DNA of 64,000 nt from a candidate division WWE3 bacterium RAAC2_WWE3_1. GTDB lineage: Bacteria; Patescibacteriota; WWE3; UBA101185; UBA10185. The DNA is taken from positions 239,341-303,340 of the forward strand of contig CP006914.1 in assembly GCA_000503835.1 (NCBI GenBank). Direction: 5' to 3'. The notes beneath the pieces are model-generated. The model saw only the letters and a list, made by a program, of their open reading frames with translations, had not been told where the DNA came from and searched no databases. Below are positions 1 to 15,600 of this stretch, in pieces. A program made the position numbers and the translations under genes. Numbering within the stretch: the first letter of the stretch is position 1; every line of letters begins with the position of its first letter.

Positions 1-338
1 AACGTCGGCGTTGAGCCAAATTCAAAGGTACCCACTACGTTTCATTGTTACACATAAAATTCATTTTTGCGGAGAGAATTACTAATTTAATATGATAGTT
101 ATAGGTCTATTTGTCTACGACCTTTTGATGTTGTAGACGAAGGCACTTTAACAACACAACAAGAAAGAGATGTGTGTTTAATTGGGCGGCACTTCCTGGC
201 GTTTCTTAGAGGAACTTCAGGTGGTGCCTGCTCAATAAGGAGCACACAAACTAATAATGAAAGGAGAAAATCATTGGAGAAAGAAATCTCTGTGCAGAGT
301 AAGTTGGATAATACTCAACCATTCAATAGGAGGATAAA

Positions 339-599
339 ATGTCTACGTTTGTAGCGAACGTCATCTTTATTGCCACCTTCGCATTCTCTGCTGCGCTGGT
401 ACTGTTTGGCCTGCTTATGGTAGTAGGCGTACTGCGCGGTCATGAAACTGCGGGGAAGGTTCTGACGACAATCGGTGCGGTTCTTTTAGCCGCGGCGATA
501 GTAATTTGGGCCTCCCGGGATTTTTCAGGTGACAAAATTTTGATCACCACCGTCGGCAATTGGATCGAAACGATCCTTACCGAACCATTGGGTCAGTAA
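339..599 (+). CDS. Small (86 aa) membrane protein with two hydrophobic helices; candidate T4SS pilin-like subunit (VirB2/TrbC-like)
   Basis: Strong RBS aggagg 5 nt upstream of ATG 339. Two long hydrophobic segments (VIFIATFAFSAALVLFGLLMVVGVL and TTIGAVLLAAAIVIWA) in an ~90-aa protein. It is the first gene of the co-directional cluster and abuts the next gene (stop 599, start 601). Confidence 0.4.
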   Translation: MSTFVANVIFIATFAFSAALVLFGLLMVVGVLRGHETAGKVLTTIGAVLLAAAIVIWASRDFSGDKILITTVGNWIETILTEPLGQ

Positions 600-600
600 A

Positions 601-2106
601 ATGACCGCCAAGCGTGCAGGGACATGGCTCATCGCACTGGTGGGCGGCCTGCTGCTAACCGGATGTGATGTTCCAACAAACATGGAGAGTCTTTTTGACT
701 GGAGGGATAAGTTTTTCCTTCAAGTAGAGATCTCCAATATCGAACAGCTCCTAGGTCCTGTGATAGCCTTGCTAACAGTTATGGCTACTGTTATCTCACT
801 TTGGGGTGCTATCTCAAACATGAATAACAGGAGACCAATCTCTAGTGGCTCATACCTGGTCGGGGTTTTTCTTCTCGTAACTGCAGGATTGATACTTAGA
901 TATATACCCATAGCAACAAGCTTTGGGAAAAGTATCTTTCCTCAGGACTTAACTTTGGATAAGGTTTTCAGTGCGTTGCGCTGGGAAATCTCGTCCGACC
1001 CTATTGAGCTGGTAACCGTGGCTTGGGGCGTATCGTTGACCTTAGTCCTACCGCTAATAAGTGCTTTCTGGGAAATAGTCATGCTGGTAGCTGCAGTAAT
1101 TGCTATAGCAATATCTATTGCCGGGAGGTCGCTTAAAGGAGTAATCTTCGCTGTCGTGCAAATTCTGGGTTGGGGTCTGTTTCTTGTGATGTATAACACC
1201 CTGGTGTCACTCATAGGAACCTATTACCCTTCCTGGGATTTGTCGTCTGTTGCTGTTCTGACCAGTGCTTTCTATATAGCGGCGACGTTGTTTTTACTGC
1301 TTGCCTGTTACATAGGATTGCCTTGGTTAGCCGTTTCTCTCGCTCCCTCACGTTCTTCGGAGGAAGTTGTAGAACGGGAAGAAAAACGGAGTTGGAAAAT
1401 AGATCTAAACGATATATTAAACTCTCCAATTCCTATTCCCATTCCTTACGAGCGTGATAATGAAGACAGCGAAGTCGGAAACGGCGGAGGCGGAGACGAT
1501 GACGAGATGCCCCCTTACTACACGTGGAGTCCCAGTGGACCCAACTCACCACGGAGTCCGGAAAATCCTATACCGGTGATAAATTTACCGGGTGGTTCTT
1601 CGGAAGAATCCTACTTCAGCGGCTCTGTAGCGGATAGTCCCGACTTACAAAATGCAGGTAACGACAATTCTGACTATGTGGTAAGTGTGAGGAATGAGAC
1701 AACAAAACACGCTCCACAGCCGGAAAAAGAACGACCTGCAAACCCATCCGTAAGAAACCCACTAAAATCCAACGAGGAAGACTTGTTGCCTGATGGAGAC
1801 ATCAGTTCCCGTAAGTCTGCCAGGAAAAGCTACGTCGAGAATTTAAACAAGACGGCAGAGATTCTTACAGTAGCGGGAACAGTAACAGGTCAACCGAAGC
1901 TGGTTTTAGGAGGTAGTGCGGTAAAGTTTGCCGGGCACATCGCAGAACAGCTTTCCGCACCGGGTGCCCATCCTAAAGAAGTACTTTCACGGGAAGCGAA
2001 AGGGTTGGCTGAGAGAACTGTCGAATCACTTTTTCCCGGCATTTCCGGTGCAGACTTACTGCCGGATTTAGGGAAGAAGGGAGGTGAGGATGAACAAGCT
2101 CCCTAA
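601..2106 (+). CDS. Polytopic membrane lipoprotein (501 aa) with long disordered acidic/Pro-rich C-terminal tail; VirB6/TrbL-like candidate
   Basis: N-terminal signal with lipobox LLLTGC. There are at least 5 hydrophobic TM segments in the first ~250 aa, then ~250 aa of low-complexity hydrophilic sequence (PIPIPIPY, GNGGGGDDDE). This is the architecture typical of VirB6/TrbL family channel proteins. Inference from architecture only. Confidence 0.4.
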   Translation: MTAKRAGTWLIALVGGLLLTGCDVPTNMESLFDWRDKFFLQVEISNIEQLLGPVIALLTVMATVISLWGAISNMNNRRPISSGSYLVGVFLLVTAGLILRYIPIATSFGKSIFPQDLTLDKVFSALRWEISSDPIELVTVAWGVSLTLVLPLISAFWEIVMLVAAVIAIAISIAGRSLKGVIFAVVQILGWGLFLVMYNTLVSLIGTYYPSWDLSSVAVLTSAFYIAATLFLLLACYIGLPWLAVSLAPSRSSEEVVEREEKRSWKIDLNDILNSPIPIPIPYERDNEDSEVGNGGGGDDDEMPPYYTWSPSGPNSPRSPENPIPVINLPGGSSEESYFSGSVADSPDLQNAGNDNSDYVVSVRNETTKHAPQPEKERPANPSVRNPLKSNEEDLLPDGDISSRKSARKSYVENLNKTAEILTVAGTVTGQPKLVLGGSAVKFAGHIAEQLSAPGAHPKEVLSREAKGLAERTVESLFPGISGADLLPDLGKKGGEDEQAP

Positions 2107-2419
2107 GGTTGATGCGGTAAAAGAGTGGAAATATCGTTTACTCGACAATTCCGCTCAATTCGGATTTGGGGACATAGCTGTTAAACCTATTTGGGGTGTG
2201 GTGTTGGTTCTCCTGATGTTTCTGGCTGTTCTGTACACAATTCTTCCGTCTTTTGTGGTTGGCGTTCTGGCGATTACGGCGGCTCTATCGGTGTTTGCGC
2301 TGATAAAGAAAGTCCGGCGGAATTACAAATACCATAAGCTTCACGTGAAGCCTGCGAGGAAGAATGAGGAACGCGTTATAGAAACCACTCTTGCGGATCG
2401 CCCTTACTCCAAAAAGTGA
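2090..2419 (+). CDS. Small membrane protein (~109 aa), VirB3-like candidate located immediately upstream of the P-loop ATPase
   Basis: The ORF track starts at GTG 2084. ATG 2090 follows RBS gaaggaggtgagg. One long hydrophobic segment (PIWGVVLVLLMFLAVLYTILPSFVVGVLAITAALSVFAL) and a basic C-terminus. The start overlaps the end of the upstream gene, which suggests translational coupling. Confidence 0.35.
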   Translation: MNKLPKVDAVKEWKYRLLDNSAQFGFGDIAVKPIWGVVLVLLMFLAVLYTILPSFVVGVLAITAALSVFALIKKVRRNYKYHKLHVKPARKNEERVIETTLADRPYSKK

Positions 2420-2458
2420 GTATGCATTTCGGAGAGTACCCCGAAAAGTGACCAAACC

Positions 2459-2493
2459 GAGAGGATAGGGAGTCCCCCTGTCTCTATCCTCTC
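2459..2493 (+). promoter_or_regulatory. Perfect 10-bp inverted repeat hairpin (gagaggatag ... ctatcctctc, 15-nt loop) in the 363-bp gap between VirB3-like and VirB4-like genes; possible attenuator/terminator or protein-binding palindrome
   Basis: Inverted repeat read directly from the sequence. It is followed only by a weak T-run (acccttttaag), so intrinsic termination efficiency is uncertain. Confidence 0.3.
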
Positions 2494-2781
2494 ACCCTTT
2501 TAAGTAAAACCACAACTTGAGAGGGAATTCTCTTTCTTGTTGTGGCTCTTTTTAAACAGCTGACTAAACGGCTGCTTGAAAAGGGTAGAGAGTAAGTTAG
2601 GTCTCTGATTTTACAGAGACGCACTTTGACAAACACAGCATGAAAGTTTACTAAGACAATTTATGGATCATGCAGTGGCGCGGGTACCGGCAAGAGATTG
2701 TCCGTGATCTTTTTCCGGTGCTCACGCCAATAAAGGCATGAAACCTAATCAACCAAACACCTATATACGAAAGGAGAACAC

Positions 2782-4719
2782 ATGGTTTTTTGGAGACGAC
2801 TCAAAACGCCGGTAAAAGAGCAACTTTTATTGCCGGCAAGTATACGTAAGGACCATGAAGCGTTTGAGCGTGAAAAACTCACCGCTCAGGCACTTTTGGG
2901 AATCAAGGTACGCCCCGGGGAACACTCAGAAGCTGTTATTACAAGTTACACCAGGGATACGATTAAACGGTCGGTGGCTTACCACAGGTCATCAAATTTT
3001 TATGATGATTCTGTTTTGGAACTCCGCCGGGCATTTGATTATTCCAACGATTTTACGTTTCTTGTAAGGGCGGTCCGTGAAGACCCGCAGGCTTATCTTA
3101 ATCACCTGGAGCAGGAAAAATCCATTTCTAATGAGCACCGCACCCTGTTTCTCGACGAAGTTCAGGAATGGGCCTTGCCCCGTAAGTTACGGCAGTTGTC
3201 AGGCCACGACTTACTTATATGGGGACCTGAGGAACAAGTTGTTCCGGCCGCCCACGAAGAATCTTTAGCTCTCCACGGGAAGATAGTAGGGTATCGTCAG
3301 TACGGACCTGTACTAAGGTCGGTAATTGACGGCGTAGCGATGGATATGTCCAATACTCCTGAGGATCCTTTCACGGGATCGATGGACCCTGTATGGTACG
3401 CCGCCCCGCTAAATGTTATATGGCACTACCGCTACTATGAACTACCGCACATCGACAAATCTTTCGCGTTCTTCTCAGGAGTTTTTAAGAAACCCGAGGA
3501 GATATCTCAGGCGTTAGAACTTGGAGACTTGTTAATCCGGGCTGAAAATGTCGGACGAGTGATGTATTTCACGGCGGTACTTCGCGTCGAGGTAAGCACG
3601 AACGGAAAGGCTCCGGATTTCTCTACACCGGCGAAGATATTATCTAAGCTGGGAAAATGGGAACTCAGAACCGGAAACGATATCCGCACGGCGTTTTTAG
3701 CTTTCATACCGGGTAGTGCGGTACTACAGGAATGGCATCGGCATTCCATTTCTTCCAAAGTTGATCAAACTTTGCAGAGTTTTACAAGATCTCTGCGAAC
3801 AACAGGCGACAGAAATGGAAACTACATCGTCGGTATAAACAACGGTCAGCCACTCCTGCTGGATTACCGGGTACGGCCCTCCATACTTTATGTGGGACCA
3901 AGCAAAACCGGTAAGACGACCAAGGCTCTCGAAGAAGCTCTTGAGACCACAAAAAACGTGGTCTGGCTGCCTTTAACCGCAGGTGAATTTGAAGCGGCTC
4001 CCAAAGTATTTGAACTTTTCGGCGGGAAAGTTATTCCCCTGAATTTACCCGATGCTTACTCGCTTAACGAGGGAAAGAACGGGAGATTCCGCCGGGAAGC
4101 AAATATCGAAGAGCAGGAAAAGCTTCACACTGAAGACAGGGAGCTCGCTCAAAAGATTGTTCTTGAGTTGGAGGCAAGTTGGGAAATGAAAGGTAGGGTA
4201 GTCGGATTACCACTGACTTTTAAGATTGAGTCAGGCGATACTATCCGTCTGTACAGTTTCTACGATCATTTTCTAAAGGCATTTCGGGATCTCTGGAAGC
4301 GCCGGTACGAAAAGACAGGCGAGTGGGCTGTTGTAGTGGCTGATAACTTCAGCGCTCTACGACTATCCGAAGACGATCCGATTTTGGGAAGTATTCCCGA
4401 AGCAACCGGCCGCAATCTGGGCATTTTGCTCGCATGGATGGTCAGCAACGGAAGAAATGTGGGAATCTTAACCCGCATTTTGACCCACTCAAAGGACGAT
4501 TTGGACTACATTACAACGGGTCTTTTTCGTCAGTTCGGACTCGTCCTGCAGTTCGAGCACAACGAGTATTCCTGGGTGAAGGTTTTCCAAAACGGTGAAG
4601 TTTATGCAGACCGTGTGGAAGTTACACTGCCCAAGTCTATTCTTTCGCTCGTAGGCAGACGGGAGCCCGGACAAGGAGAAGATGAGTGGATACAAGAAGT
4701 TTCTTCCGCTCGCTCCTAG
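2782..4719 (+). CDS. P-loop NTPase, 645 aa (Walker A YVGPSKTGKTTKA); VirB4/TraC-like secretion ATPase candidate
   Basis: RBS aaggag before ATG 2782. It has a Walker A GxxxxGKT at about aa 375, preceded by a ~370-aa non-TM N-terminal domain. A candidate Walker B, AVVVADNF, carries D but not the usual E. The position after a VirB3-like gene and before a cell-wall hydrolase fits VirB4. Family assignment is inference; no motif beyond the P-loop is unambiguous. Confidence 0.4.
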   Translation: MVFWRRLKTPVKEQLLLPASIRKDHEAFEREKLTAQALLGIKVRPGEHSEAVITSYTRDTIKRSVAYHRSSNFYDDSVLELRRAFDYSNDFTFLVRAVREDPQAYLNHLEQEKSISNEHRTLFLDEVQEWALPRKLRQLSGHDLLIWGPEEQVVPAAHEESLALHGKIVGYRQYGPVLRSVIDGVAMDMSNTPEDPFTGSMDPVWYAAPLNVIWHYRYYELPHIDKSFAFFSGVFKKPEEISQALELGDLLIRAENVGRVMYFTAVLRVEVSTNGKAPDFSTPAKILSKLGKWELRTGNDIRTAFLAFIPGSAVLQEWHRHSISSKVDQTLQSFTRSLRTTGDRNGNYIVGINNGQPLLLDYRVRPSILYVGPSKTGKTTKALEEALETTKNVVWLPLTAGEFEAAPKVFELFGGKVIPLNLPDAYSLNEGKNGRFRREANIEEQEKLHTEDRELAQKIVLELEASWEMKGRVVGLPLTFKIESGDTIRLYSFYDHFLKAFRDLWKRRYEKTGEWAVVVADNFSALRLSEDDPILGSIPEATGRNLGILLAWMVSNGRNVGILTRILTHSKDDLDYITTGLFRQFGLVLQFEHNEYSWVKVFQNGEVYADRVEVTLPKSILSLVGRREPGQGEDEWIQEVSSARS

Positions 4720-6077
4720 CGTTTTTTATTTTCCCCGGAATTCCGTTGTTGATACTCGCGCTTTTGGCGTCGATGTTTTTAACATTCGGGATTATGCACG
4801 ACGCAGACCCAAAGGCTTACAATGATTACATCAAAGAAGCCTTGGGTCTGTCCGGGGGAACGTGGTACTCACTCCCCGCCGATGCCGAAGAGAAAATTAT
4901 CTCATTAGGCTTTGATCCTGCTGTTGTTGCCGATGAAATAATGGCGAACAAATGGATTAATGAGAACGGCGGTGAGATTGACCTTGGCATTCAACTATCC
5001 ATACTGGAGGGCGAGTCTAAAGGAGGTACAAATTTAGGTACCTGCAGTGGAATAGCCTCTTCAGCCAAACTGTCCCATCAGGAAGTTGTTTCCGCCCTGT
5101 GGCTTTTAAACTACTGGAAGGAACACGATGTGAGAGATTGGTCAGATATTGCCAAAGAAATGATCCGGCCGGACTATAGCGACTACACAGCACATTGTTC
5201 GGCCGGAGAAATTGGACCCAACGGAATACTTCCTTCCACCGGGGTAAAGATATGCAGGGACGGACTTTCAATGCATCCCGACGACCTGGTGAAATCCTGC
5301 AACTTTTTTGACAAGCGGGTAGCACCGTACGGAAAAAACTGGTGGTTAAAAGCTATCGGATACAGGTCGGGGCAGACAAAAGCCGAAAAGATTGACTCAC
5401 TGTATGGTTGGAACCATGACAGCACTTACCGCAATCAGCTTGTAGATAGGGCCGATGTTTTAAATGCTGCGGCGTTCGGTTGGAGCGACTACGCACCCGT
5501 TTCTGAGAATGCCTACGTTTTCAAAGGAGGGTGGTGGCGTAGTCAGGCAATTAAGGTTTTGAAAACGACAGGTTTGCTTGAAGGTATAGTGTTTGCCGCA
5601 GGTCCGGACTATCCGCCATGGGAACCACCACAAGTTGCAGGGAGCTTTTCCAACCCCTATCCGGACAGCGTAATATGCGGGTATGAATACGGAAAACCTG
5701 TTGCCAACGGAATTCATTGGGGAATAGATCTTTGCATAGGCGACCCGTTGAGATCCTCTCCGATATACGCCATGCATTCCGGTACCGTAACGTTTTCCAG
5801 ATATCTGTCTCCCAGCGAAACGTTAGCAGGTCAATGGTGGGTTTCAGGAAACGTCATCGCCGTAGAAGGAAAAGACGATGAAGGAAAAACTATCTGGACA
5901 GCTTACGGCCACGGTGCCAACGGTACCACTAAAGTTAAGGAAGGAGATGTTGTAAAGGAAGGTCAGTTGCTCATGATGTCTGGAACAACCGGCTTTTCTA
6001 CAGGAATTCACCTGCACCTTGCTATGAAAATTAATGGCGGGTGGGTGAATCCTTCGGCTTATCTAGGGGGCGATTGA
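4686..6077 (+). CDS. Membrane-anchored peptidoglycan hydrolase with C-terminal M23 (LytM-type) peptidase domain; VirB1-like functional analogue
   Basis: N-terminal hydrophobic anchor (LLAFFIFPGIPLLILALLASMFLTFGIM). The C-terminus has the M23 signature HWGIDL ... GHGANGTT ... TGFSTGIHLHLAM (HxxxD and HxH metal ligands). GTG start 4686 overlaps the upstream gene by 34 nt. An in-frame ATG at MFLTF is the alternative start. Confidence 0.7.
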   Translation: MDTRSFFRSLLAFFIFPGIPLLILALLASMFLTFGIMHDADPKAYNDYIKEALGLSGGTWYSLPADAEEKIISLGFDPAVVADEIMANKWINENGGEIDLGIQLSILEGESKGGTNLGTCSGIASSAKLSHQEVVSALWLLNYWKEHDVRDWSDIAKEMIRPDYSDYTAHCSAGEIGPNGILPSTGVKICRDGLSMHPDDLVKSCNFFDKRVAPYGKNWWLKAIGYRSGQTKAEKIDSLYGWNHDSTYRNQLVDRADVLNAAAFGWSDYAPVSENAYVFKGGWWRSQAIKVLKTTGLLEGIVFAAGPDYPPWEPPQVAGSFSNPYPDSVICGYEYGKPVANGIHWGIDLCIGDPLRSSPIYAMHSGTVTFSRYLSPSETLAGQWWVSGNVIAVEGKDDEGKTIWTAYGHGANGTTKVKEGDVVKEGQLLMMSGTTGFSTGIHLHLAMKINGGWVNPSAYLGGD

Positions 6078-6280
6078 TCGGAGGATTTTTCTCTCTCATT
6101 CGCCCCGTTTCCGCTCAGGAAAAACTTTCTTGCTGTGTTAGAACATGAGCATTTAAATGTAAATTTGAATGTTGATGTTTCGGTTTAGCTTTTAAAGTCA
6201 AACCGTTTATCAAAGCACTTTAAAAATATAGATAAGCTAACGTTTATTATGTAAGGCGGGCGCCGGTAAGATTTTCACTT

Positions 6281-6289
6281 GATATAATT
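6281..6289 (+). promoter_or_regulatory. Extended -10 promoter element (tgaTATAAT) upstream of the 6359 gene
   Basis: TGnTATAAT match at 6281-6289. There is no good -35, which is consistent with extended -10 promoters. Confidence 0.3.
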
Positions 6290-6358
6290 GGAAGTCTTCC
6301 CGGCGTGATAGCCTTAATAAGAGGCGTTAAAAATCAGACTATCGGAAGGAGAAAAGCA

Positions 6359-7576
6359 ATGAGTTCAGGTAAAGCGTTGACGGCCTTGGGCCTACTAATT
6401 TTCACACTTTGTGCGGTTGTAGGATTCCTCGCCTTTGCGTTAAATACTTTAAGTGTAGGTTCTGATCTTTTTTCAGGGATAGTTTTACCGCAATTGGAAA
6501 CAGTAGTATTATATGCAGTTTCCTTTACACTTGCGGTAATTCTTAGCCAGGTTTTTTCAATCCGGTTTGTTAAAGTTTCACAAAACTTTGTATTCAAGAT
6601 TTTTGACCGGCAGTGGCTCCCCAAAGAAGGTAAGGCCGAAACTTATACAACTGAATACGGCGAAAGGTTGGAAAAGGTTGTGTCGCAAAGCTATACAGGA
6701 ACAGTTGTATGGGAATTGGTTACGCAAACAATCCCCACAGTTTTTCTGTTAAGTTTCGTATTCGGTGTTCTTGCTGTGATTGTTGCCTTCGCCGTAAATC
6801 TGTCGCTTCCGCTAGTCGGATTAGGAACAGTATTTATGGTCAACGTTGTTTTGTTTTCATGGGAATACTGGGTAAAACAATGGAGAAGGAAATACAGCAA
6901 ACTGATAATTTTCACTTCACAGGTTGGGTATTTGAGGGTGAGAACACCACTTCTTTCCCTTCTTTTCGGCATCGGAAATTTACCGAGAGTATCCTGGACA
7001 CCCGTGAGTGAAATAAACGATGACCAGATCGCCGCGGATCCCCAGGATTTCGATCCAAAATACAAAACGTCTTGGCTGCGCGATCAGTATACGTCGTTCT
7101 TGTCCAAAAAAAATAACATAAGAACGATATTTCTTAGATCGAAGTCTAACGAAGCGGAAGATACTGTGCTGTGGATCGATCACGGACCAGGTATCGAAAA
7201 GATACTAAAAAGTCTAAAGAGAAGGTCTACACAGCTGTTGACGGAGCAGAGTTACATAGATCGGGCTGCCCTTCGTATGCGCCTAGGAGGCACCGCTGAA
7301 GAGGACTGGAGTCGTATTCGTGCTGACGAAGAGGCAAGACTTTTTCAGGAACGTTTCAGGGAAATTAGCATTGCTCCAAAAACCCACGATCTGTATAGGA
7401 TTGAAGATCCGGGGTTATACGACAACGACGGCAACCTGATTGAGAAAACGTCTGTCGAGGCTAACGCAGGGAGAGGCGATTATGATGTTTCGCATTTTTT
7501 CTCCTCCCCTAGCCGTCGGCTAAATGATTACGATGCTACAGAGGAGCAGAATCCTGATCAGGATAAAATTCCGTAG
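6359..7576 (+). CDS. Polytopic membrane protein (about 4 TM helices) with ~200-aa charged cytoplasmic C-terminal domain; hypothetical, last gene of the T4SS-like cluster
   Basis: The ORF track starts at 6305. ATG 6359 has a perfect RBS ggaagga 6 nt upstream and lies downstream of the extended -10 element. Hydrophobic helices in the N-terminal half. No recognisable catalytic motif. Confidence 0.5.
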   Translation: MSSGKALTALGLLIFTLCAVVGFLAFALNTLSVGSDLFSGIVLPQLETVVLYAVSFTLAVILSQVFSIRFVKVSQNFVFKIFDRQWLPKEGKAETYTTEYGERLEKVVSQSYTGTVVWELVTQTIPTVFLLSFVFGVLAVIVAFAVNLSLPLVGLGTVFMVNVVLFSWEYWVKQWRRKYSKLIIFTSQVGYLRVRTPLLSLLFGIGNLPRVSWTPVSEINDDQIAADPQDFDPKYKTSWLRDQYTSFLSKKNNIRTIFLRSKSNEAEDTVLWIDHGPGIEKILKSLKRRSTQLLTEQSYIDRAALRMRLGGTAEEDWSRIRADEEARLFQERFREISIAPKTHDLYRIEDPGLYDNDGNLIEKTSVEANAGRGDYDVSHFFSSPSRRLNDYDATEEQNPDQDKIP

Positions 7577-7588
7577 TTCCCGTAATAT

Positions 7589-7635
7589 GGGAAAAGGATG
7601 AGAACAATGTTTTCATCCTTTTCCTTACTTTAAAA
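7589..7635 (+). terminator. Intrinsic terminator: 16-bp near-perfect stem (ggaaaaggatgagaac / gttttcatccttttcc), 3-nt loop, T/A-rich tail
   Basis: Hairpin read directly from the sequence 12 nt after stop codon 7576. It separates the membrane cluster from the rho-like gene. Confidence 0.5.
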
Positions 7636-7705
7636 ATTAAGAGTAGGTCGAAATTCGGACTTAATTTGGATATTGAGATCGTATTTGGGCCTATCCTAAT
7701 AAGGG

Positions 7706-9061
7706 ATGGTAAATCAACTAAGAGAAAGGAAGAGAAATATGATCGGACTTGTGTTACAGCAGGAATTGTCTAGTGTTGAAAAACCCTTGTATGACTACAT
7801 GGGAAACAAGAAGAACGTGAATAATTATCCGAAAACGATTATTATACCCAATACTGATCAGTTTTTCGGGTTTGGAAGACACGATCTTTTTGAGCGTTCA
7901 AAAGACTACGCCCTTGTACACGGAGAGGATACCTACTATTGGGGAAATTTGACCGAAAAGGGTCTAAAACGAACCGGGGTTGTACACTATTCAAAAAACG
8001 AAGAAGAAGTCATGACGGGACTTGAGGTACCACCTGAAGTATCTTCTTACTACAGGCTGGTAGAGGGAGACGAGGTCGGTGTGGTCGTAAACCACCCGGA
8101 AAAAACCGTTTTCATCTGTTCGGTCAACGGTAGTCAGGAGCCACGTGTCTTTAGGTCTTGGCCACAAAATCTTTCTGAATTTCAGAGCGATTACCCTAAA
8201 AGACCTCTTCTTGTCGAAAAGTTCGGAGACTTTGACCTGCGTGCTATGACCTTGCTTGCCCCGATAGGCTTGGGTTCGAGTTATTGGGTTATAGCTCCGG
8301 GAGGCGCCGGAAAAACGTGGCTTCTTGTTAAGCTTTTAGACGCCTGTTTGAAGCTTTCAAGGGAAGATGACAGTATTTACGTAATGATGGTATATGTTGG
8401 CGACCGGCCTGAGGATGCTTCACAATACATCGAGGTATTTGGAAGAAACAAGAGAGGCCGCGGTGTATTTCACCAAGCCCCATGGAACATAAGCCCCGAT
8501 GCTCAGGTTGATGTTGCGAAGTTCGCGATGAAACGAGCTCACAGGTTGGTGGCTACGGGAAGGCATGTGGTCGTGCTGTTCGATTCCATTAGTCGTACTG
8601 TCGCCGCGCACACAGCGTCGTCATATGTGGACGGTGAAGGAGGTATGATAGGGGGAGGTATATACCGCCAAAGTCTGACCGACATGATCGCTAAACAATT
8701 CGGAACGCACGGTTCATTTGATGAGAAACGGTCTCTAACAATTATAGGCTCCGTTCTTTCTTCATCGGATACCAGAAAAACTTCCGAATCAGCTGTTGAT
8801 CAGGAAACTTCGGATAGTTCTACAACAGGAATTTGCAGGTTGCTAAAAATTCCGACGTCGGAAAGACCGTGGGTATCGGTTAACGAAGGCGAAACCTATA
8901 CGAGATTTCCCAATGGGAGAGATTTCAGAAGCGAGAATCAGCGTCAGGAAATGGAAACGGTTAAGAAATTGATGCGGACAGGTGCCGGGAGCAGGGATTC
9001 TTCGGAGGCGCATAAAATTCTTTTAAAATATGCCAGGGAAAACCCTCTCCCTAAGTACTGA
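7706..9061 (+). CDS. rho: Transcription termination factor Rho (divergent), 451 aa
   Basis: Collinear matches to E. coli Rho across both domains. RNP1-like FFGFGR in the N-terminal OB region (Rho DGFGFLR). DLRAMTLLAPIGLGSSYWVIAPGGAGKTWLL versus [33 protein letters not shown] (Walker A). VMMVYVGDRPEDA versus LMVLLIDERPEEV. VVVLFDSISRTVAAHT versus VIILLDSITRLARAYN (Walker B). SLTIIGSVL versus SLTIIATAL. Confidence 0.65.
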   Translation: MVNQLRERKRNMIGLVLQQELSSVEKPLYDYMGNKKNVNNYPKTIIIPNTDQFFGFGRHDLFERSKDYALVHGEDTYYWGNLTEKGLKRTGVVHYSKNEEEVMTGLEVPPEVSSYYRLVEGDEVGVVVNHPEKTVFICSVNGSQEPRVFRSWPQNLSEFQSDYPKRPLLVEKFGDFDLRAMTLLAPIGLGSSYWVIAPGGAGKTWLLVKLLDACLKLSREDDSIYVMMVYVGDRPEDASQYIEVFGRNKRGRGVFHQAPWNISPDAQVDVAKFAMKRAHRLVATGRHVVVLFDSISRTVAAHTASSYVDGEGGMIGGGIYRQSLTDMIAKQFGTHGSFDEKRSLTIIGSVLSSSDTRKTSESAVDQETSDSSTTGICRLLKIPTSERPWVSVNEGETYTRFPNGRDFRSENQRQEMETVKKLMRTGAGSRDSSEAHKILLKYARENPLPKY

Positions 9062-9096: not shown

Positions 9097-9140
9097 AAGA
9101 GGCAAAGATTAAATGTTTTTGCCTCTTTTTTTATTTTTCC
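9097..9140. terminator. Bidirectional intrinsic terminator between convergent rho-like gene and coiled-coil gene
   Basis: Stem aagaggcaaa / tttgcctctt with an 11-nt loop, flanked by T-run tttttttatttttcc on the plus strand and an A-run on the minus strand. Confidence 0.5.
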
Positions 9141-9550
9141 GGGGATTTGTTTTCGCCGTCGTGAAGTTTGAGGCTTTGTTTCTCCAGATTAGTTATTCTT
9201 CTGTTCATGAAGGCTCTTTCTTCGCGGTTTTCTTTTATTTCCCCAATCATAGCATCAACATTATCGTAGAGTTTGGGAAAGTTTATAGTTCTTGTGTCCA
9301 GCTCTTCGAGTTTTTGTTCTACTTTGAAAAGTCTGTTTAAGATACCGGTTAATGTGTTATTTATTCTAGTTAGTTCTTCAGTTATTCCGCTTACTGTATT
9401 GGTTACCTTAGCTAGCTCTTTAGTTATTTCATCTACTGTATTATTTGTCCTTGCTACTTCTTTCTCCAGCGTCTCCAGCTTGCCTTGTATCACGCCTAAG
9501 ACTTTCTCGACCCTGGATTCAAATGTATTTTCTAGAACAGTGTCTTTCAT
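9131..9550 (-). CDS. Small coiled-coil protein (~139 aa) with three ~11-14-residue T/N-rich heptad-like repeats (NNTVDEITKEL / TNTVSGITEEL / NNTLTGILNRL); co-transcribed downstream of the giant surface protein
   Basis: The ORF track uses a TTG start at 9589; the first ATG is 9550 (MKDTVLEN). Sequence is K/E/L-rich. Same strand as the giant gene with only 69 bp between them. Confidence 0.45.
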   Translation of the reverse strand: MKDTVLENTFESRVEKVLGVIQGKLETLEKEVARTNNTVDEITKELAKVTNTVSGITEELTRINNTLTGILNRLFKVEQKLEELDTRTINFPKLYDNVDAMIGEIKENREERAFMNRRITNLEKQSLKLHDGENKSPEK

Positions 9551-9657
9551 TTGTTTTTCGAAAATAACACAGTGAAGAAAGTTGTTCAATATGTCAGCCT
9601 ATGAAAAACGGAAAAATTGTAAACCAATATTCTAATATGCCCCCAACACAATAAAAG

Positions 9658-12600
9658 CTACTCGCCGAATCTTAATGCGGAATTTTCGTTATATAAAAGT
9701 TTTACAAGTGTGTCATTAAACGCCATGGTGTGTATTGAAACCTCATCGATTTTTCCATCAAAATATCCGCTGCCTGCGGAGTCACGTCCTATATTTAATG
9801 CCGTTGCACTAGTCGACATAACATTGTCGGCCTCAGCCTGAGTTCCCGTGTTTACGCCATTTACGTATATTTTAATATTTGATCCGTCGTAGGTGCAAAA
9901 AACGTGGGACCAGGTACTTGTAGAAAGGGCAGTTGAGGACACGGCGGCCGTCTGCCAGGCTCCGGCATATATCTCGCACTGCGGTTTATTCGAGGAGTCG
10001 GTAGTTAGCCTAAACTCGTTGTTCTTTTGAATTATGGTCTTCGAGGTCGCGGCGGTGGCAGGATTGACCCACGCGCCGAACGAAAAGTTGTTGTATGGCT
10101 GTGAGGTTGCCGAGGTTAAAAGAACGGTGTTAGAGCTAGCAAGATAGTCATCAGTCCCGTCAAAATCCAGACTTCCGTTGAACTTGCCGCTTTCTCCCCC
10201 AAACCACATTTCATTCGCACTCCCCACACATGTCCCTACCGTTGTATTGCCTAATGTTTGAGGATAGATTGTTAAGTTGGTACCGACTGCAGTTCCGTTC
10301 GAGTTCTGTGCTGAATTATTTGCAGTGTTGCCGGAGCATTCGTTAAGTTTGTAGTTATACGTTGCATCACCTCTGTTATATTCCCAGTTTATTTGCTGTG
10401 GGGTACGGGCGTATTTGTACATAACAATGTTGTCGATTTTGCCTTCGAAGTTTGTGTTGCCGGCGGGTTGTGCACCGACGGTGAAGTCGCTCGCGGTTAC
10501 AGGATTCAAGTCTCCGACCGCCGTAAGCGTTCCGCTCTGGGCAGCGCCTCTTTTAATACCGTTGACATAAATGTCGGTATTGGCAGTAGAATCCCGGTCA
10601 ACGACAACTTCCAAATGCACCCACTGGTTGCTGGGAACTGAGGCTGCGTCCGACAACGTAAATTGATCCGTGCCGTCCGATATGTAAAATCTGGGAAGTC
10701 CGGCACTGCTGATGAATAAATAGTAGCCGGGATCGGTTGCTGTAGTAGTGGCTTTCTTGGCAATAACAACGTCGGTACTGACAGGTGGGGCCTTATATAT
10801 CCACGTGGAAATAGAGAAATCTTCGGTGTTGATTGAAAGATCGGCGTTAGTGGGTTCCTGAAGATAATCATCGCCTCCGTCAAAATACCCGGCATAACCG
10901 AACTTCCCGATCTGACCTCCTGTCGGGCCCGAACCTGCCGGACCGGAACGGAGGTTATATTGATTCACCGAAGAATCTAAAACAGAGAGTGTGCTGTCAT
11001 CGTTTATCCAGGAGCCTTCGTCAAATTTCCAATGTCCAAAAGGTGCCTCACACGTCGCCGTATCCCCCGGCACGCAAAACTCGCGATCATACGAATTCGA
11101 GGGGTTTCCGGAACTGTCGGTCGATACAGCGCCCCATTGAGAAGTTTTCGAGTCGTTCAAAAAAAGTTTGGCCCGGTCGGAGCCGATATCAAAATTATAT
11201 ATACTTACTTCGTCTATGGAGCCGTTAAATTTGGACGAGTAATCTTCCCCGCGTCCGCCTATGACCAATGTATTGTCTCCGTTAACGGTACCTGATGCTG
11301 CGATTGTCGTTTTCGAATCGACTAAAAGTCCGTCAATGTAAAGGTCGATTTGGGTATTATCTTTTTTCACCGCAGTTGCATTGTGCCAAAGACCGTCGTA
11401 TAAATCCGTAGGACTTGAGGCCGAAGTGTCCGGGCCCCAAGTTGTGTCATCATCAACACCGAATAAAAGATTCCCCGCAGTGTTGAAATATAATGCGTAG
11501 CCCGCAGTAGTATTTCCTCCTCTTCCGAGCACATATTCTGTGCCGGAAGGATTGGATGAGGAGCTTGATTTGAACCAGAGATTTAAAGCAAAACCGGCGG
11601 CGTTGAATATAAAGGCATTATCGTCTCTCGAGGCATAGTTTGTGCCGTTGGGGTAGAATGCTTTATTAAATTTTCCTGTTACGGTGTATGAAACGGCAGT
11701 CGGAGGGGAGGCCGTAAGGGTTAGGTTTCTGCTATTTCCTGTTCTATCGTAAATCGTTGTTCCCCCACCCTCATCGAAACGCCAAAATCCGAGTGCCGTA
11801 CCCAGAGTTGGGTCGGGAGAAGGGTATTGTGCGTCCAAATCTTTTGTTATCTGAGTTATTTCAGCCGGATAGTTATATATTTTTACATCATCTATTCGAC
11901 CCTTGAATATTTCCCCAGAGCCTCCTACCCATTGGGAACCGTAGGTTTTTCCGATCAAAAGTGGGGCACCGGCAGAATCGATTGTATAGGCTGAGCCATT
12001 TGTTGTTGTATTTTCCAGAACCCCGTTTACATATATTTTTAAGTTTGTTCCGTCGAAGGTACCTGCAAGGTGATACCAGGTGTTGGGGGTCCAGGAGGAT
12101 GTTGTTGAGGCAACGCTTTTTAGTTTAGAAGTGCCGTATTTTGCAATCTGGTTAACAGTTACACCACCAGCTGTGGTAAAAGCTCCACCCACATATAAAT
12201 TCCCGTTATATACTGCGAAAGCGTTGACGGTGCTATCCACCCCCGTTGTCTGTCCGATATTAGAAAACTGATTCGTCTGGTCATTGTATTTTGCAATGTA
12301 GTTAACACTTACTCCTCCCGCCGTGATGAAATATCCCCCCGCATACAAACTCCCGTTATATACTGCGAAAGCGTTGACGGTGCTATCCACCCCCGTTGTC
12401 TGTCCGATATTTGAAAAGGTGTTTGTAGAGTCATTATACTTTGCGATTTTGTTGACACTTATTCCTCCCGCCGTGGTTAAGTCTCCACCCACATACAAAT
12501 TCCCGTTATATACTGCGAGAGTCTGGACGTAGCTATTTACCCCCGTTGTCTGTCCAATATTTGAAAAGGTGTTTGTCTGGTCATTGTACTTTGCAATGTA

Positions 12601-15600
12601 GTTAACCGTCACACCTCCGGCGGTGGTGAAATATCCACCCACATACAGGTTTCCGTTATATACTGCGAGAGTCTGGACTGTGATGCCTACACCTGTAGTC
12701 TGTCCGATATTAGAAAACTGATTCGTCTGGTCATTGTATTTTGCGATACGGTTAACCGTCACACCCCCCGCTGTGGTAAAACCTCCCCCCACATACAGAT
12801 TCTCGTTATATACTGCGAAAGCGTTGACGGTGCTATTCACCCCCGTTGTCTGTCCGATATTAGAAAACTGATTCGTCTGGTCATTGTATTTTGCAATGTA
12901 GTTAACACTTACTCCCCCAGCCGTGGCAAAAGTTCCACCCACATACAGGTTTCCGTTATATACTGTAAGAGCGTTGATGTTACCACTTACCCCCGTTGTC
13001 TGTCCTATATTTGAAAACTGATTCGTCTGGTCGTTGTATTTTGCTATGTAGTTAACACTTACTCCTCCCGCTGTGGTAAATTGACCTCCGACATACAAGT
13101 TTCCGTTATACACAGCGAAAGCCTCGGCAGGCGCTGACACCCCAGTTCCCTGCCCAATACTAGAAAAAGCTTCCGAAGCACTATCATTCACCACAAACTT
13201 AGCCTTCCCGTCCGTCTTATCCAGAAAAAGCTGATAATCCCCCTTGTCAATAACACCCATATTACCGGGCGCTGAGGTAGAAAAACCATTATCCACAGAA
13301 ACCCAAGCTGAAACTGCAATGGATGACGTTGGGGAAATATATGAACTGCTGCTTGTAGTCACAAAATCATTATTCCCGTCAAAGGAAACACCCGATCCGT
13401 ATCTTCCGGGCGCAAATTCTGCGCCTTCGTTTAGGGTTCCCGTGGCACCGTTTCCGCTCACGTCATTTGTAGTAGTTCCTGAGCCTTCTTCAAATTTATA
13501 ATACAGATTTGATGGGGGGGACAGTTCGGCTAAGTTATATATTTCGTCATCGGTTAGTGCTGTATTGTATGTTCTGAAGTCGTCAAGACGGCCTTTGAAA
13601 TTCTCTCCGGAACCTCCGGCCCATTGAGAACCGTAGGTTTTACCCATGTAAAGCGGGGAGGATGATGCTGAAAGTGTAAATGATGACGTGTTTGTTGTGG
13701 TGTTTTCAAGGACACCGTTTATATACATTTTAAGTGTTTTTCCGTCAAAGGTTCCTGTAAGGTGGTACCAGGTGTTTGCCGTGAATGATGCTGTGGTTGA
13801 CGACACAGTTTTAGTGTTGGAGGTGCCGTATTTCGCGATGTAGTTAACACTCACACTTCCAGCTGTGGTAAAGTTTCCACCCACATACAGATTCCCGTTA
13901 TATACTGCAAAAGCGTAGACGGTGCTATTTACCCCCGTTGTCTGTCCAATATTCGAAAACTGATTCGTCTGATCATTGTACTTTGCAATGTAGTTAACAC
14001 TCACACCCCCTGCCGTGGTTAAGTTTCCCCCCACATACAAGTTTCCGTTATACATAGCAAGAGAGTCGACTTCGGTATCTACCCCTGTTGTCTGTCCTAT
14101 ATTAGAAAACTGATTCGTCTGGTCATTGTATTTTGCAATGTAGTTAACACTAACACCTCCTGCCGTGGTAAAGTACCCCCCTACATACAAGTTTCCGTTG
14201 TACACAGTCATGTCGAGAACCATACCATCAACCCCTGTTGTCTGTCCAATATTCGAAAACTGATTCGTCTGGTCATTGTATTTTGCAATGTAGTTAACCG
14301 TCACACCTCCCGCTGTGGAAAATATTCCGCCCACATACAAGTTTCCGTTATATACTGCAAAAGCGTAGACTTCGCCAGCTACCCCTGTTGTCTGTCCTAT
14401 GTTAGAAAACTGATTCGTCTGGTCATTGTATTTTGCAATGTAGTTAACACTAACACCTCCTGCCGTGGTAAAGTACCCCCCTACATACAAGTTTCCGTTA
14501 TATACTGCCAAAGCGCTGACGAAGTTATCTACACCCGTACCCTGTCCTATATTAGAAAAAGCCTTAGCAACGTTGTCATTAACAACCCATTTAGCTTTCC
14601 CGTCTGTTTTATCCATGTAAAACTGGTAATCGCCTTTATCAACAACTCCCATATTAGAAGGAGACGATGTGGAGAAGCCGTCGGTCATTTTTACCCATCC
14701 GGATACTGTGACCTGGGAAGTGGGAGCGAGTGTCGGATTAGAACCCGCTGTTACGTAGTCATCGACGCCGTCAAGAGAAGTTGCGTTAACATACTTACCT
14801 TCGTTCCACGCGGCACTGTTAACAAGTGTTGCCGTGTTGGAATTTCCCGAATAGTCGGCTGATGTTGTACCTGTACCTTCGTCCATCTTCCAATAGCCTG
14901 TTAAACCATCCGACACAAAATTAGTTGAATCATTTCCGAACGCAGCCGACGTTCCGTGCAAAGTGGGGGAGTACTTTATGTTATCGGACCTTATTTCGAC
15001 GAGCGTTCTTTCTTTGGCGTATATTTTGAATTCATCGATGTACCCGTCAAAATTTGAACCGCTGGAACCCGCCCCTATGTTAAGTGTATTTGTTTCGGTA
15101 GCGGGAGATCCGTCACCATTAATGCTGGTTCCTTTTAAAACTCCGTCAACATATATTGATATTTCATCATCAGAATCGTTTGTGTACGCCAGGCTAATCA
15201 AGTGCCATTGATTAAGATTTAACGCGTCATCCACAGTAAGCGTTGCATCAGTTGTTCCGAGGTCTATTTTCGCCGAAAGGTCAACAACCTGATCGTTACT
15301 TCCTGCCGCAAGTCCGAGATAGTTGTTTGCCCCCTTAGAAAATATTTTTCCTGTGTTTGACCCGCCTAGTGTGTTTGCCCGCACCCACATTTGAATCGTG
15401 AAGCCACTGTTTAGTTTTTTTCCAAAGTTGATAGGTTCGTTGTCAGTGACACCTACCACATCGTCAGATCCGTCGAAAACAAGACATCTGCCGCTTACAC
15501 AATATTCATCTGCGGATTGCCAGGAAGGCATGGTAATGTCACTGACAGATAGTGTTTTTAACGATAGAATCGAAGATGAGTAAATATCATTGTTATTAGT

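What the first reader, a model, noticed from the sequence alone, without database searches (positions are those of the whole stretch)
339..7576. Compact T4SS-like (VirB2/B6/B3/B4/B1-type) membrane translocation module lacking relaxase and coupling protein
Six co-directional, tightly packed or overlapping plus-strand genes encode, in order:
- an ~86-aa two-helix hydrophobic protein (pilin-like);
- a lipobox-bearing (LTGC) polytopic membrane protein with a 250-aa disordered tail (VirB6/TrbL-like);
- a ~109-aa single-helix membrane protein (VirB3-like);
- a 645-aa P-loop NTPase with Walker A GPSKTGKT (VirB4/TraC-like position and size);
- a membrane-anchored M23/LytM peptidoglycan hydrolase (VirB1/TcpG/PrgK functional analogue);
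- another polytopic membrane protein.

This gene order (B2-like, B3-like directly 5' of the ATPase, hydrolase next) is the hallmark of minimal Gram-positive-type type IV secretion/conjugation cores. No VirD4, relaxase, oriT or integrase is visible in the window.

That suggests a chromosomal, non-conjugative use, for example DNA uptake or effector/contact-dependent delivery, as has been proposed for episymbiotic CPR bacteria.

None of the proteins except the M23 domain has strong primary-sequence motifs, so the system may be too divergent for standard annotation.
Basis: partly seen in the sequence, partly recalled or inferred. Interest (0 to 1): 0.8.

Follow-up and report, generated by a model that had tools for sequence, protein, structure and literature searches.

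The report
Divergent WWE3 type IV secretion cluster
This is a chromosomal type IV secretion-like gene cluster of an ultra-small WWE3 (CPR) bacterium, too divergent for standard annotation profiles to recognise, and it always carries an extra Rho-like motor ATPase and a repeated RNA leader not reported in the type IV secretion literature consulted here.

Summary
The six genes exist as described, and the cluster is real. Its order is conserved in at least 11 loci from WWE3 and related Patescibacteria, down to about 20% ATPase identity.

- **ATPase identity.** No Pfam, NCBIfam or PADLOC profile recognises the 645-aa ATPase. A high-confidence AlphaFold model (pLDDT 92.7) matches VirB4 best. VirB4 of R388 (TrwK) is the only solved structure that aligns over both domains (481 residues). 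A profile comparison with PrgJ-type VirB4 gives 83% probability.
- **Gene order.** The order (polytopic protein, small 2-TM protein, ATPase, wall hydrolase) mirrors PrgH-PrgI-PrgJ-PrgK of pCF10. The VirB2, VirB3 and VirB6 labels rest only on position and topology.
- **No conjugation genes.** There is no relaxase, VirD4 or integrase in the window. The setting is chromosomal, next to hisS.
The module has seven genes. A Rho-derived RecA-type ATPase (7739-9061) is always linked to it. Each of the four transcription units starts with the same cluster-specific leader, which has a covarying hairpin. The Walker B motif reads DN instead of DE.

[quoted passage not shown] Verdict: a new variant of a known kind.

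The parts
143..257 (+). Leader copy A before g1: box GCACTTTAACAACACAACAAGAAAG, then a covarying hairpin, then a GCTC-AATAA-GAGC mini-hairpin
   Evidence: Covariance model R1 scores 97 bits, E 8e-18. Covariation.
339..599 (+). g1: 86-aa protein with two hydrophobic helices; candidate VirB2-like pilin or conduit subunit
   Evidence: ORF. Two TM segments. Family alignment A4. It is a fused tandem duplicate in L016. Pfam pilin matches are noise level only.
601..2106 (+). g2: 501-aa polytopic lipoprotein with an invariant LLTGC lipobox, about 6 TM segments and a long hydrophilic tail; sits in the VirB6/PrgH position
   Evidence: No Pfam, NCBIfam or PDB sequence match.
2090..2419 (+). g3: 109-aa 2-TM hairpin protein; sits in the VirB3/PrgI position
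   Evidence: hhalign against PrgI gives only 14% probability, but aligns a shared N-terminal D-x-S...IWG motif.
2459..2493 (+). 13-bp stem hairpin followed by a T-run directly after g3; looks like a terminator
   Evidence: Consensus fold with partial covariation. Sequence.
2532..2544 (+). Inverted copy (CTTTCTTGTTGTG) of the leader's 13-mer, about 90 nt upstream of box B
2621..2745 (+). Leader copy B before g4
   Evidence: R1 scores 90 bits, E 3e-16. The intergenic sequence is conserved across WWE3 genera.
2782..4719 (+). g4: 645-aa VirB4-type ATPase. N-terminal domain about 1-345; RecA-like C-terminal domain with Walker A GPSKTGKT, Walker B VVADN, and GRNxG...THS
4686..6077 (+). g5: 463-aa membrane-anchored wall hydrolase. 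Conserved N-terminal domain of unknown fold plus a C-terminal M23 metallopeptidase with intact HxxxD and HxH
   Evidence: It overlaps g4 by 34 nt.
6125..6137 (+). Inverted 13-mer copy (CTTTCTTGCTGTG) upstream of leader C
6215..6336 (+). Leader copy C before g6
   Evidence: R1 scores 60 bits, E 5e-10.
6359..7576 (+). g6: 405-aa protein with 4 TM segments and a conserved, probably cytoplasmic, C-terminal domain (motifs SADPQxFD, RTIFLRS, DPGLYD). The ORF extends upstream to GTG 6305
   Evidence: No family or PDB match.
7625..7720 (+). Weak leader copy D before g7
   Evidence: R1 scores 18 bits, E 0.25 in the window. The equivalent copies, which were not in the training set, score E 5e-4 in L001 and 4e-5 in L005.
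7739..9061 (+). g7: 440-aa Rho-derived RecA-type ATPase. The ORF extends upstream to ATG 7706
   Evidence: NCBIfam Rho E 2e-22 but 80 bits against a cut-off of 315. Best PDB sequence matches are Rho at 6e-18, then FliI at 6e-8. The family is lineage-restricted. Alignment with E. coli Rho. Syntenic in every locus with enough downstream sequence.
9097..9127 (+). Intrinsic-terminator-like hairpin plus T-run that closes the cluster; shared with the convergent 152-aa gene

Best explanation
The region encodes a seven-gene, chromosomally fixed, type IV secretion-type envelope machine of a monoderm WWE3 (CPR/Patescibacteria) bacterium.

**Shown**
- g4 is a VirB4-fold ATPase.
- g5 is a membrane-anchored M23 peptidoglycan endopeptidase with intact catalytic residues.
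- g7 is a Rho-derived RecA-type ATPase.
- All seven genes are co-inherited across distant relatives.
- The four transcription units (g1-g3, g4-g5, g6, g7) begin with the same cluster-specific leader.

**Inferred**
- g2 (polytopic lipoprotein) and g3 (2-TM hairpin) form the membrane platform in the way VirB6/PrgH and VirB3/PrgI do, and they dock the VirB4 hexamer.
- g5 opens the wall locally, as VirB1 and PrgK do.
- g1 is pulled out of the membrane and polymerised into a pilus or conduit, as proposed for the VirB2-like pilins of other Patescibacteria.
- g6 and g7 form a lineage-specific second energising or substrate-handling unit, taking the place of the missing VirD4.

With no relaxase or coupling protein, the machine is not conjugative. 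It most likely moves macromolecules between the epibiont and its host cell. Direction and substrate are unknown.
For: **VirB4 identity**
- Foldseek: TrwK E 1e-10, TMq 0.53; the next best hit is HerA at E 6e-8, and no other hit exceeds TMq 0.31.
- hhalign of the family against a PrgJ profile gives 83%, E 9e-6, over 139 columns. These include the AFxAFvPG / EALNTiLPiG junction motif and Walker A. The control against a Rho-like P-loop profile gives 21% over 47 columns.
- The R(N/K)xG...T(H/Q) motif parallels VirB4's RKxG...TQ.

**Gene order and synteny**
- The order equals PrgH-PrgI-PrgJ-PrgK of pCF10 and resembles the Southlakia T4SS.
- Synteny holds in at least 11 loci, down to about 20% ATPase identity.

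**Co-regulation**
- The leader model finds copies only in front of cluster genes in the 64-kb window. It also finds copies that were not in its training set, before g1, g4 and g7 of the distant L005.

**Setting**
- Chromosomal and housekeeping. No defence-system match.
Against: - No curated HMM (Pfam, NCBIfam) detects VirB4, VirB3/PrgI, VirB6/TrbL or VirB2 in any of the proteins, in the 73 family members, or in family consensus sequences.
- Walker B reads D-N in WWE3 and D-D or D-N across the family, not D-E, so catalysis may be impaired or work differently.
- No VirB8-like component was found.
- g1, g2, g3 and g6 have no demonstrated homology to T4SS parts.
- A Rho-like ATPase is not reported in the T4SS literature consulted here.
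Confidence: 0.75

Rival explanations
1. g7 is not part of the machine. It is a dedicated Rho-paralogue regulator that loads on the conserved, G-poor, C/A-rich leader box (CACAACAAGAAAG) and terminates or attenuates transcription of the four units. On this reading the cluster is a six-gene T4SS-like machine plus its own regulator.
For: g7 is closest to Rho, not to secretion ATPases. Part of the Rho OB-fold, the Walker motifs and the Arg finger can be aligned. Every unit, g7's own included, carries the same leader with a strand-specific, G·U-rich covarying hairpin, which points to an RNA element.
Against: The Rho primary-site aromatic residues F62, F64 and Y110 fall in deletions. Pfam finds no Rho_RNA_bind domain. 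g7 directly follows the membrane protein g6 (10-nt gap in L016), which suggests a membrane-tethered partner. I know of no established case of an operon-specific Rho paralogue (own knowledge).
Confidence: 0.3
2. The cluster is a novel envelope machine built on a HerA/FtsK-type ATPase and is unrelated to type IV secretion. Examples would be a nucleic-acid pump, a wall-remodelling or division apparatus, or a defence system.
Against: Only VirB4 (TrwK) aligns across both domains. The hhalign match covers the VirB4 domain-junction motif. The gene order is identical to Gram-positive T4SS cores. No PADLOC match.
Confidence: 0.12
3. The cluster is a decayed remnant of an integrated conjugative element that has lost its relaxase, coupling protein and integrase.
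For: T4SS-like content without DNA-processing genes. A serine recombinase lies about 4 kb upstream of the window start on the organism's own contig.
Against: The cluster sits beside hisS in several WWE3 genera. All seven ORFs are intact and conserved, with g5 and g7 at 60-84% identity. The recombinase is not syntenic in relatives. GC content is unremarkable. The conserved shared leaders argue for an actively regulated system.
Confidence: 0.03

Closest known systems
Patescibacteria-clade T4SS, for example Southlakia epibionticum SEML1_0006-0019 (Wang et al. 2023, PMC10633639; Quinonero-Coronel et al. 2025, PMC12102498)
   Same: Chromosomal. No relaxase, and no coupling protein next to virB4. 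Short VirB4 (about 610-650 aa). A small TM protein lies upstream of VirB4 and a wall hydrolase downstream. Small hydrophobic pilin-like genes lie in the cluster. The organism is a monoderm CPR bacterium.
   Different: In Southlakia the parts are recognised by standard profiles: PF18895 pilins at E about 1e-12 to 1e-14, PF12666 PrgI at 5e-15, VirB4 through K12063, and an NTF2-like VirB8. Here none is recognised. The hydrolase here is M23, not lysozyme. Walker B is DN. A Rho-like ATPase, a 4-TM partner and a repeated leader are added. No VirB8-like protein or TrsD was found.
MPF-FATA Gram-positive conjugation core, pCF10 PrgH-PrgI-PrgJ-PrgK-PrgL
   Same: Same gene order: polytopic protein, small TM protein, VirB4, membrane-anchored wall hydrolase. 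The profile match to PrgJ is 83%.
   Different: pCF10 is plasmid-borne and conjugative, with VirD4 (PcfC) and a relaxase. Its hydrolase is lysozyme/CHAP type. It has no pilin and no Rho-like ATPase.
Archaeal Ced/Ted DNA-import systems (VirB2-, VirB6- and VirB4-like proteins only)
   Same: Minimal, relaxase-less, chromosomal VirB4-based machine with small hydrophobic subunits. Their role in DNA import is known from the literature (mentioned in PMC12102498).
   Different: Not compared here, because no sequences were available to the tools. Those systems are archaeal and, to my knowledge, have no M23 hydrolase or Rho-like ATPase.
Transcription termination factor Rho (for g7)
   Same: Homologous RecA-type ATPase domain with Walker A and B, Q- and R-loop region and Arg finger. 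Part of the OB-fold can be aligned.
   Different: It scores 72-83 bits against family cut-offs of 315-628. Pfam finds no Rho_RNA_bind or Rho_N domain. Catalytic E211 is replaced by D. Key RNA-binding aromatic residues are deleted. It is always encoded inside the T4SS-like cluster.

Membership tests
Type IV secretion system (VirB4-based) | VirB4-family ATPase with the characteristic N-terminal domain plus a RecA-like C-terminal domain | tested here: met
Type IV secretion system (VirB4-based) | Recognition of VirB4 by curated sequence profiles (Pfam CagE_TrbE_VirB, AAA_10, DUF87, TraG P-loop; NCBIfam) | tested here: not met
   No such hit for the protein, for 73 family members or for the family consensus. 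Only hhalign against a PrgJ profile gives a signal: 83%, E 9e-6, with a control at 21%.
Type IV secretion system (VirB4-based) | Canonical Walker A and Walker B (hhhhDE) catalytic motifs | tested here: not met
   The Walker A lysine is invariant. The residue after the Walker B Asp is N (28 of 73) or D (43 of 73), and E in only 1 of 73. The window protein has VVADN.
Type IV secretion system (VirB4-based) | VirB3/PrgI-like small membrane protein next to VirB4 | tested here: inconclusive
   Position, size and 2-TM topology fit. hhalign against PrgI gives only 14%. No PF12666 hit.
Type IV secretion system (VirB4-based) | VirB6/TrbL/PrgH-like polytopic membrane protein | tested here: inconclusive
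   About 6 TM segments plus a long hydrophilic tail, in the PrgH position. No Pfam, NCBIfam or PDB match.
Type IV secretion system (VirB4-based) | Dedicated peptidoglycan hydrolase (VirB1, PrgK or TcpG role) | tested here: met
   Membrane-anchored M23 peptidase with intact HxxxD and HxH, overlapping the ATPase gene. It is an analogue of VirB1, not a homologue of its SLT domain.
Type IV secretion system (VirB4-based) | VirB2/TrbC-type pilin | tested here: inconclusive
   A two-helix hydrophobic protein of 86 aa. Pfam TrbC at 0.042 and T4SS_pilin at 0.12-0.41, in single members or the consensus only.
Type IV secretion system (VirB4-based) | VirB8-like (NTF2-fold) bitopic protein | tested here: inconclusive
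   No candidate was found. The soluble domain of g6 follows 4 TM segments, is probably cytoplasmic, and has no sequence match. Its fold was not modelled.
Conjugative T4SS | Relaxase and VirD4/TcpA coupling protein | tested here: not met
   None among the cluster proteins or the larger window ORFs, nor in the 7 kb upstream on the organism's own contig. The rest of the genome could not be searched.
Transcription termination factor Rho (g7) | Score above the curated family cut-off, and the N-terminal Rho_N and Rho_RNA_bind domains | tested here: not met
   72-83 bits against cut-offs of 315-628. Pfam finds only ATP-synt_ab. Partial OB-fold alignment with key aromatic residues deleted.
HerA/FtsK-type translocases (alternative home for g4) | C-terminal-domain fold, plus the HerA HAS-barrel N-terminal domain or FtsK architecture | tested here: not met

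The most novel reading that the evidence does not exclude
The Rho-derived ring ATPase g7, tethered by the 4-TM protein g6, is the substrate motor of this T4SS-like machine. On this reading a nucleic-acid (RNA or ssDNA) translocase has replaced VirD4 and drives uptake of host nucleic acid through the VirB4/VirB6-like channel. That would supply a concrete molecular candidate for the host-RNA feeding recently reported for a cultivated Patescibacterium, whose uptake mechanism is unresolved (bioRxiv 10.64898/2026.06.21.733656).
Probability: 0.2. Interest if true: 0.85.

Novelty: new variant of a known kind. Interest (0 to 1): 0.6.

Why it matters
T4SS are essential for epibiotic growth in the one Patescibacterium that has been tested genetically, yet their substrate is unknown.

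- **Detection limits.** This cluster shows that a whole CPR lineage (WWE3 and relatives) carries a version so divergent that profile-based surveys would score it as lacking a T4SS.
- **A new handle on mechanism.** The version is invariably coupled to a Rho-type ATPase and a dedicated RNA leader. If the Rho-like protein is the motor, this points to nucleic-acid transport. If it is a regulator, it would be a rare operon-specific Rho paralogue.
- **Practical use.** The family alignments and the leader model made here could be used to re-screen CPR genomes.

Tried and rejected
- **Curated profiles.** Pfam and NCBIfam scans of all cluster proteins, of 73 ATPase family members and of family consensus sequences gave no T4SS family. 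PADLOC gave no defence-system match.
- **PDB sequence and profile searches.** Nothing for g4, g6 or g2.
- **hhalign against single pCF10 sequences.** Insignificant for PrgJ (3%) and PrgI (14%). A 20-sequence PrgJ profile was needed.
- The AFDB fold library was unavailable. The genome scan with the deep alignment failed for lack of conserved stretches; the shallow alignment found only 5 WWE3 loci.
- **Frameshift idea, rejected.** I considered whether the 362-nt gap before g4 hides a frameshifted N-terminus of VirB4. All three frames are closed, and the gap is a conserved non-coding element.
- **RNA and promoter scans.** Rfam finds nothing in the gap. The sigma-70 promoter and terminator scan was uninformative except for the terminator at 9097-9127.
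- **g7 as the housekeeping Rho, rejected.** Its scores are far below the family cut-offs. Its family is small, is confined to the same lineage and always sits in this cluster.

Full report
**1. Observation**

- A hydropathy scan gives two TM helices in g1 and a signal/lipobox plus about six TM segments in g2. It gives a 2-TM hairpin in g3, none in g4, one N-terminal TM in g5 and four in g6.
- Only g5 has a significant curated domain, Peptidase_M23 at E 1e-13. Its HxxxD (HWGID) and HxH (HLHLAM) ligands are intact, and a family profile hits LytM and TagE at about 1e-12.
- Two corrections apply. The genes are not uniformly tight, because gaps of 362 nt (g3-g4) and 281 nt (g5-g6) exist. The module also extends to a seventh gene, at 7739-9061.

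**2. Organism and setting**

- The ATPase has only eight 90%-identity clusters among 5.8 billion proteins. One is named candidate division WWE3.
- A genome scan returns four WWE3 MAGs and one 'Patescibacteria group' MAG.
- The rest of the window is housekeeping: LeuRS, TGT, RelA/SpoT, BipA, DinB, MgsA, MacB-type transporter parts and eight tRNAs.
- On the organism's own contig the cluster follows hisS and an RDD-domain gene. A serine recombinase further upstream is not syntenic in relatives.
- No VirD4, relaxase or integrase was found.

**3. The cluster is a conserved seven-gene module**

- The order g1-g2-g3-gap-g4-g5-g6-g7 recurs in WWE3 genomes with 44-84% ATPase identity: L001, L003, L009-L012 and L014.
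- It recurs in a 'Patescibacteria group' MAG, L016.
- It recurs positionally in loci whose ATPase is only about 20% identical, L005-L008.
- An exhaustive profile search finds just 83 representatives (50% clustering) among 1.84 billion proteins.

**4. The ATPase is VirB4-like**

*Sequence profiles fail.* No VirB4-type Pfam or NCBIfam family hits the protein, any of 73 family members, or the family consensus. The PDB sequence searches are empty.

*Structure succeeds.*
- In Foldseek, TrwK was the top hit at E 1e-10 and TMq 0.53. HerA was next at E 6e-8, and no other hit exceeded TMq 0.31.
- HerA, DptH, TcpA, TrwB, FtsK and EccC followed, all with 260 aligned residues or fewer.

*Profile-profile comparison.*
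- hhalign against a 20-sequence PrgJ-type VirB4 profile gives 83% probability and E 9e-6 over 139 columns. These span the domain junction motif (AFxAFvPGs against EALNTiLPiGkP) and Walker A.
- The control against the Rho-like family gives 21% over the P-loop only.
- The family motif R(N/K)xG...T(H/Q) parallels VirB4's RKxG...TQ.

*One unusual feature.* The residue after the Walker B Asp is Asn (window and WWE3) or Asp, and almost never Glu.

**5. The other components**

- The gene order equals PrgH(VirB6)-PrgI(VirB3)-PrgJ(VirB4)-PrgK(hydrolase) of pCF10. It resembles the Southlakia T4SS locus.
- Homology of g1, g2 and g3 to VirB2, VirB6 and VirB3 could not be shown. PrgI hhalign gives 14%, although it aligns a shared D-x-S...IWG motif. 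Pilin profiles are at noise level. g2 has no match.
- g2 has an invariant lipobox. In L016, g1 is a fused tandem duplicate.
- g6 has no match. Its conserved C-terminal domain follows four TM segments, so it is probably cytoplasmic and not VirB8-like (inference).

**6. The seventh gene, g7**

- g7 is a Rho homologue. NCBIfam Rho gives E 2e-22, but 72-83 bits against cut-offs of 315-628. The best PDB matches are Rho at 6e-18, with FliI at 6e-8.
- Its family has only 19 clusters, all from WWE3 or Patescibacteria. It lacks Pfam Rho_RNA_bind, and a canonical Rho is only a distant hit.
- Alignment with E. coli Rho keeps Walker A and B, the Q/R-loop region, the Arg finger and part of the OB-fold, including the Tyr80 equivalent. 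It deletes the F62/F64 and Y110 segments and has D for E211.
- g7 homologues lie in the cluster in every locus with enough downstream sequence.

**7. A cluster-specific leader**

- The g3-g4 gap is conserved at the DNA level between genera whose ATPases are about 45-55% identical.
- The same element of about 120 nt precedes g1, g4, g6 and, more weakly, g7. It consists of a GCACTTTGAnAACACAACAAGAAAG box, a hairpin and a GCC-AATAA-GGC mini-hairpin.
- The hairpin covaries. 88.5% of cells are paired against 73% in shuffles (0 of 500 shuffles reach the observed value). The covariation score is 0.55 against 0.28, and slid controls reach 0.22 or less. Many G·U pairs fit the sense strand.
- A covariance model finds no other copy in the 64-kb window. 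It recovers copies that were not in its training set before g1, g4 and g7 of the distant L005, and before g7 of L001.
- An inverted copy of the 13-mer lies about 90-100 nt upstream in two of the gaps. Rfam has no match.
- This argues for co-regulation of all seven genes.

**8. Comparison with what is known**

- Relaxase-less, chromosomal, pilin-bearing T4SS of MPF-FATA ancestry are described in 18 of 20 Patescibacteria classes (PMC12102498).
- They are essential in Southlakia (PMC10633639; review PMC12857230).
- That survey drew its genomes from NCBI's 'Patescibacteria group'. NCBI places WWE3 outside that group. No 'WWE3' or 'candidate division' name occurs in the roughly 2,000 of 3,035 Table S1 rows that are held. 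WWE3 therefore appears not to have been surveyed.
- In Southlakia the parts are recognised by standard profiles and no Rho-like gene is listed in the locus. Here none is recognised, and a Rho-like ATPase is constant.
- A 2026 preprint reports host-RNA uptake by a cultivated Patescibacterium. It shows tubular structures that may be T4SS pili, and the mechanism is unresolved. This makes an RNA-translocase-type ATPase in such a cluster worth testing, but the link is speculative.

**9. Verdict**

The finding is a new, highly divergent variant of the known Patescibacteria T4SS, with three added features: the Rho-derived ATPase with its 4-TM partner, the shared RNA leader, and the D-N Walker B.

- Confidence that it is a VirB4-based T4SS-type machine: about 0.75.
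- The role of g7 is open: about 0.3 for regulator and about 0.2 for substrate motor, with the remainder for other or accessory energising roles.

Noticed in passing
window 143-257, 2621-2745, 6215-6336, 7625-7720 (and L001, L003, L005, L009, L012-L014): A cluster-specific element of about 120 nt repeated before each transcription unit. It has a conserved 25-nt box, a strongly covarying hairpin and a GCC-AATAA-GGC mini-hairpin. It is absent from Rfam and from the rest of the 64-kb window.
   Followed up: yes
window 2532-2544 and 6125-6137: Inverted copies of the leader's 13-mer (CTTTCTTGTTGTG) lie about 90-100 nt upstream of the box in two gaps. They could form a long-range RNA stem or act as paired operator sites. 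In L013 both copies carry the complementary change, which fits either reading.
   Followed up: partly
window 4342-4347 (g4 residues 521-522): The Walker B of the VirB4-like ATPase reads D-N. Across the family the second position is D or N, and E in only 1 of 73. The protein may bind ATP but hydrolyse it poorly, or use another catalytic residue.
   Followed up: partly
window 9658-17982 (- strand): A 2,774-aa predicted surface protein with an N-terminal TM segment, glycine-rich stretches and about 17 near-identical repeats of roughly 45 aa (NGNLYVGGxFTTAGGVSVNYIAKYNDQTNQFSNIGQTTGV). It lies directly downstream of the cluster and convergent to it. It is not syntenic in other WWE3 loci, which have an SBP_bac_5 gene there. 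It may be an adhesin.
   Followed up: no
window 9131-9589 (- strand): A 152-aa coiled-coil protein that gives many weak coiled-coil family hits. It sits between the cluster's terminator and the giant protein.
   Followed up: no
L014 1721-3307 (own contig, about 4 kb upstream of window position 1): A large serine recombinase (Resolvase plus Recombinase domains) follows ResIII helicase and PDDEXK nuclease genes, on the far side of hisS. It is absent at this position in relatives.
   Followed up: partly
L001 6931-7230, L003 6999-7349, L005 161-532: Relatives carry an extra membrane protein of about 100-120 aa upstream of g1, with the motif ...DKRVP..LKL.P...PD..PGP.DD... By eye it resembles DUF1232/YkvA; this was not tested. 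In L001 it is preceded by a weak leader copy. The gene is absent from the window organism.
   Followed up: partly
L016 1886-2476: In this relative the g1 homologue is a fused tandem duplicate (two 2-TM units in one 196-aa protein). This is reminiscent of the pilin gene arrays of other Patescibacteria.
   Followed up: no
window 4800-5700 (g5 residues about 40-330): The N-terminal domain of the M23 hydrolase is the best-conserved part of the cluster (84% identity at the distance where the ATPase is 55%). It matches no family or solved structure. The motif CSAGEIGPNGILPST loosely recalls lytic transglycosylase motifs; that comparison is from memory and was not tested.
   Followed up: partly
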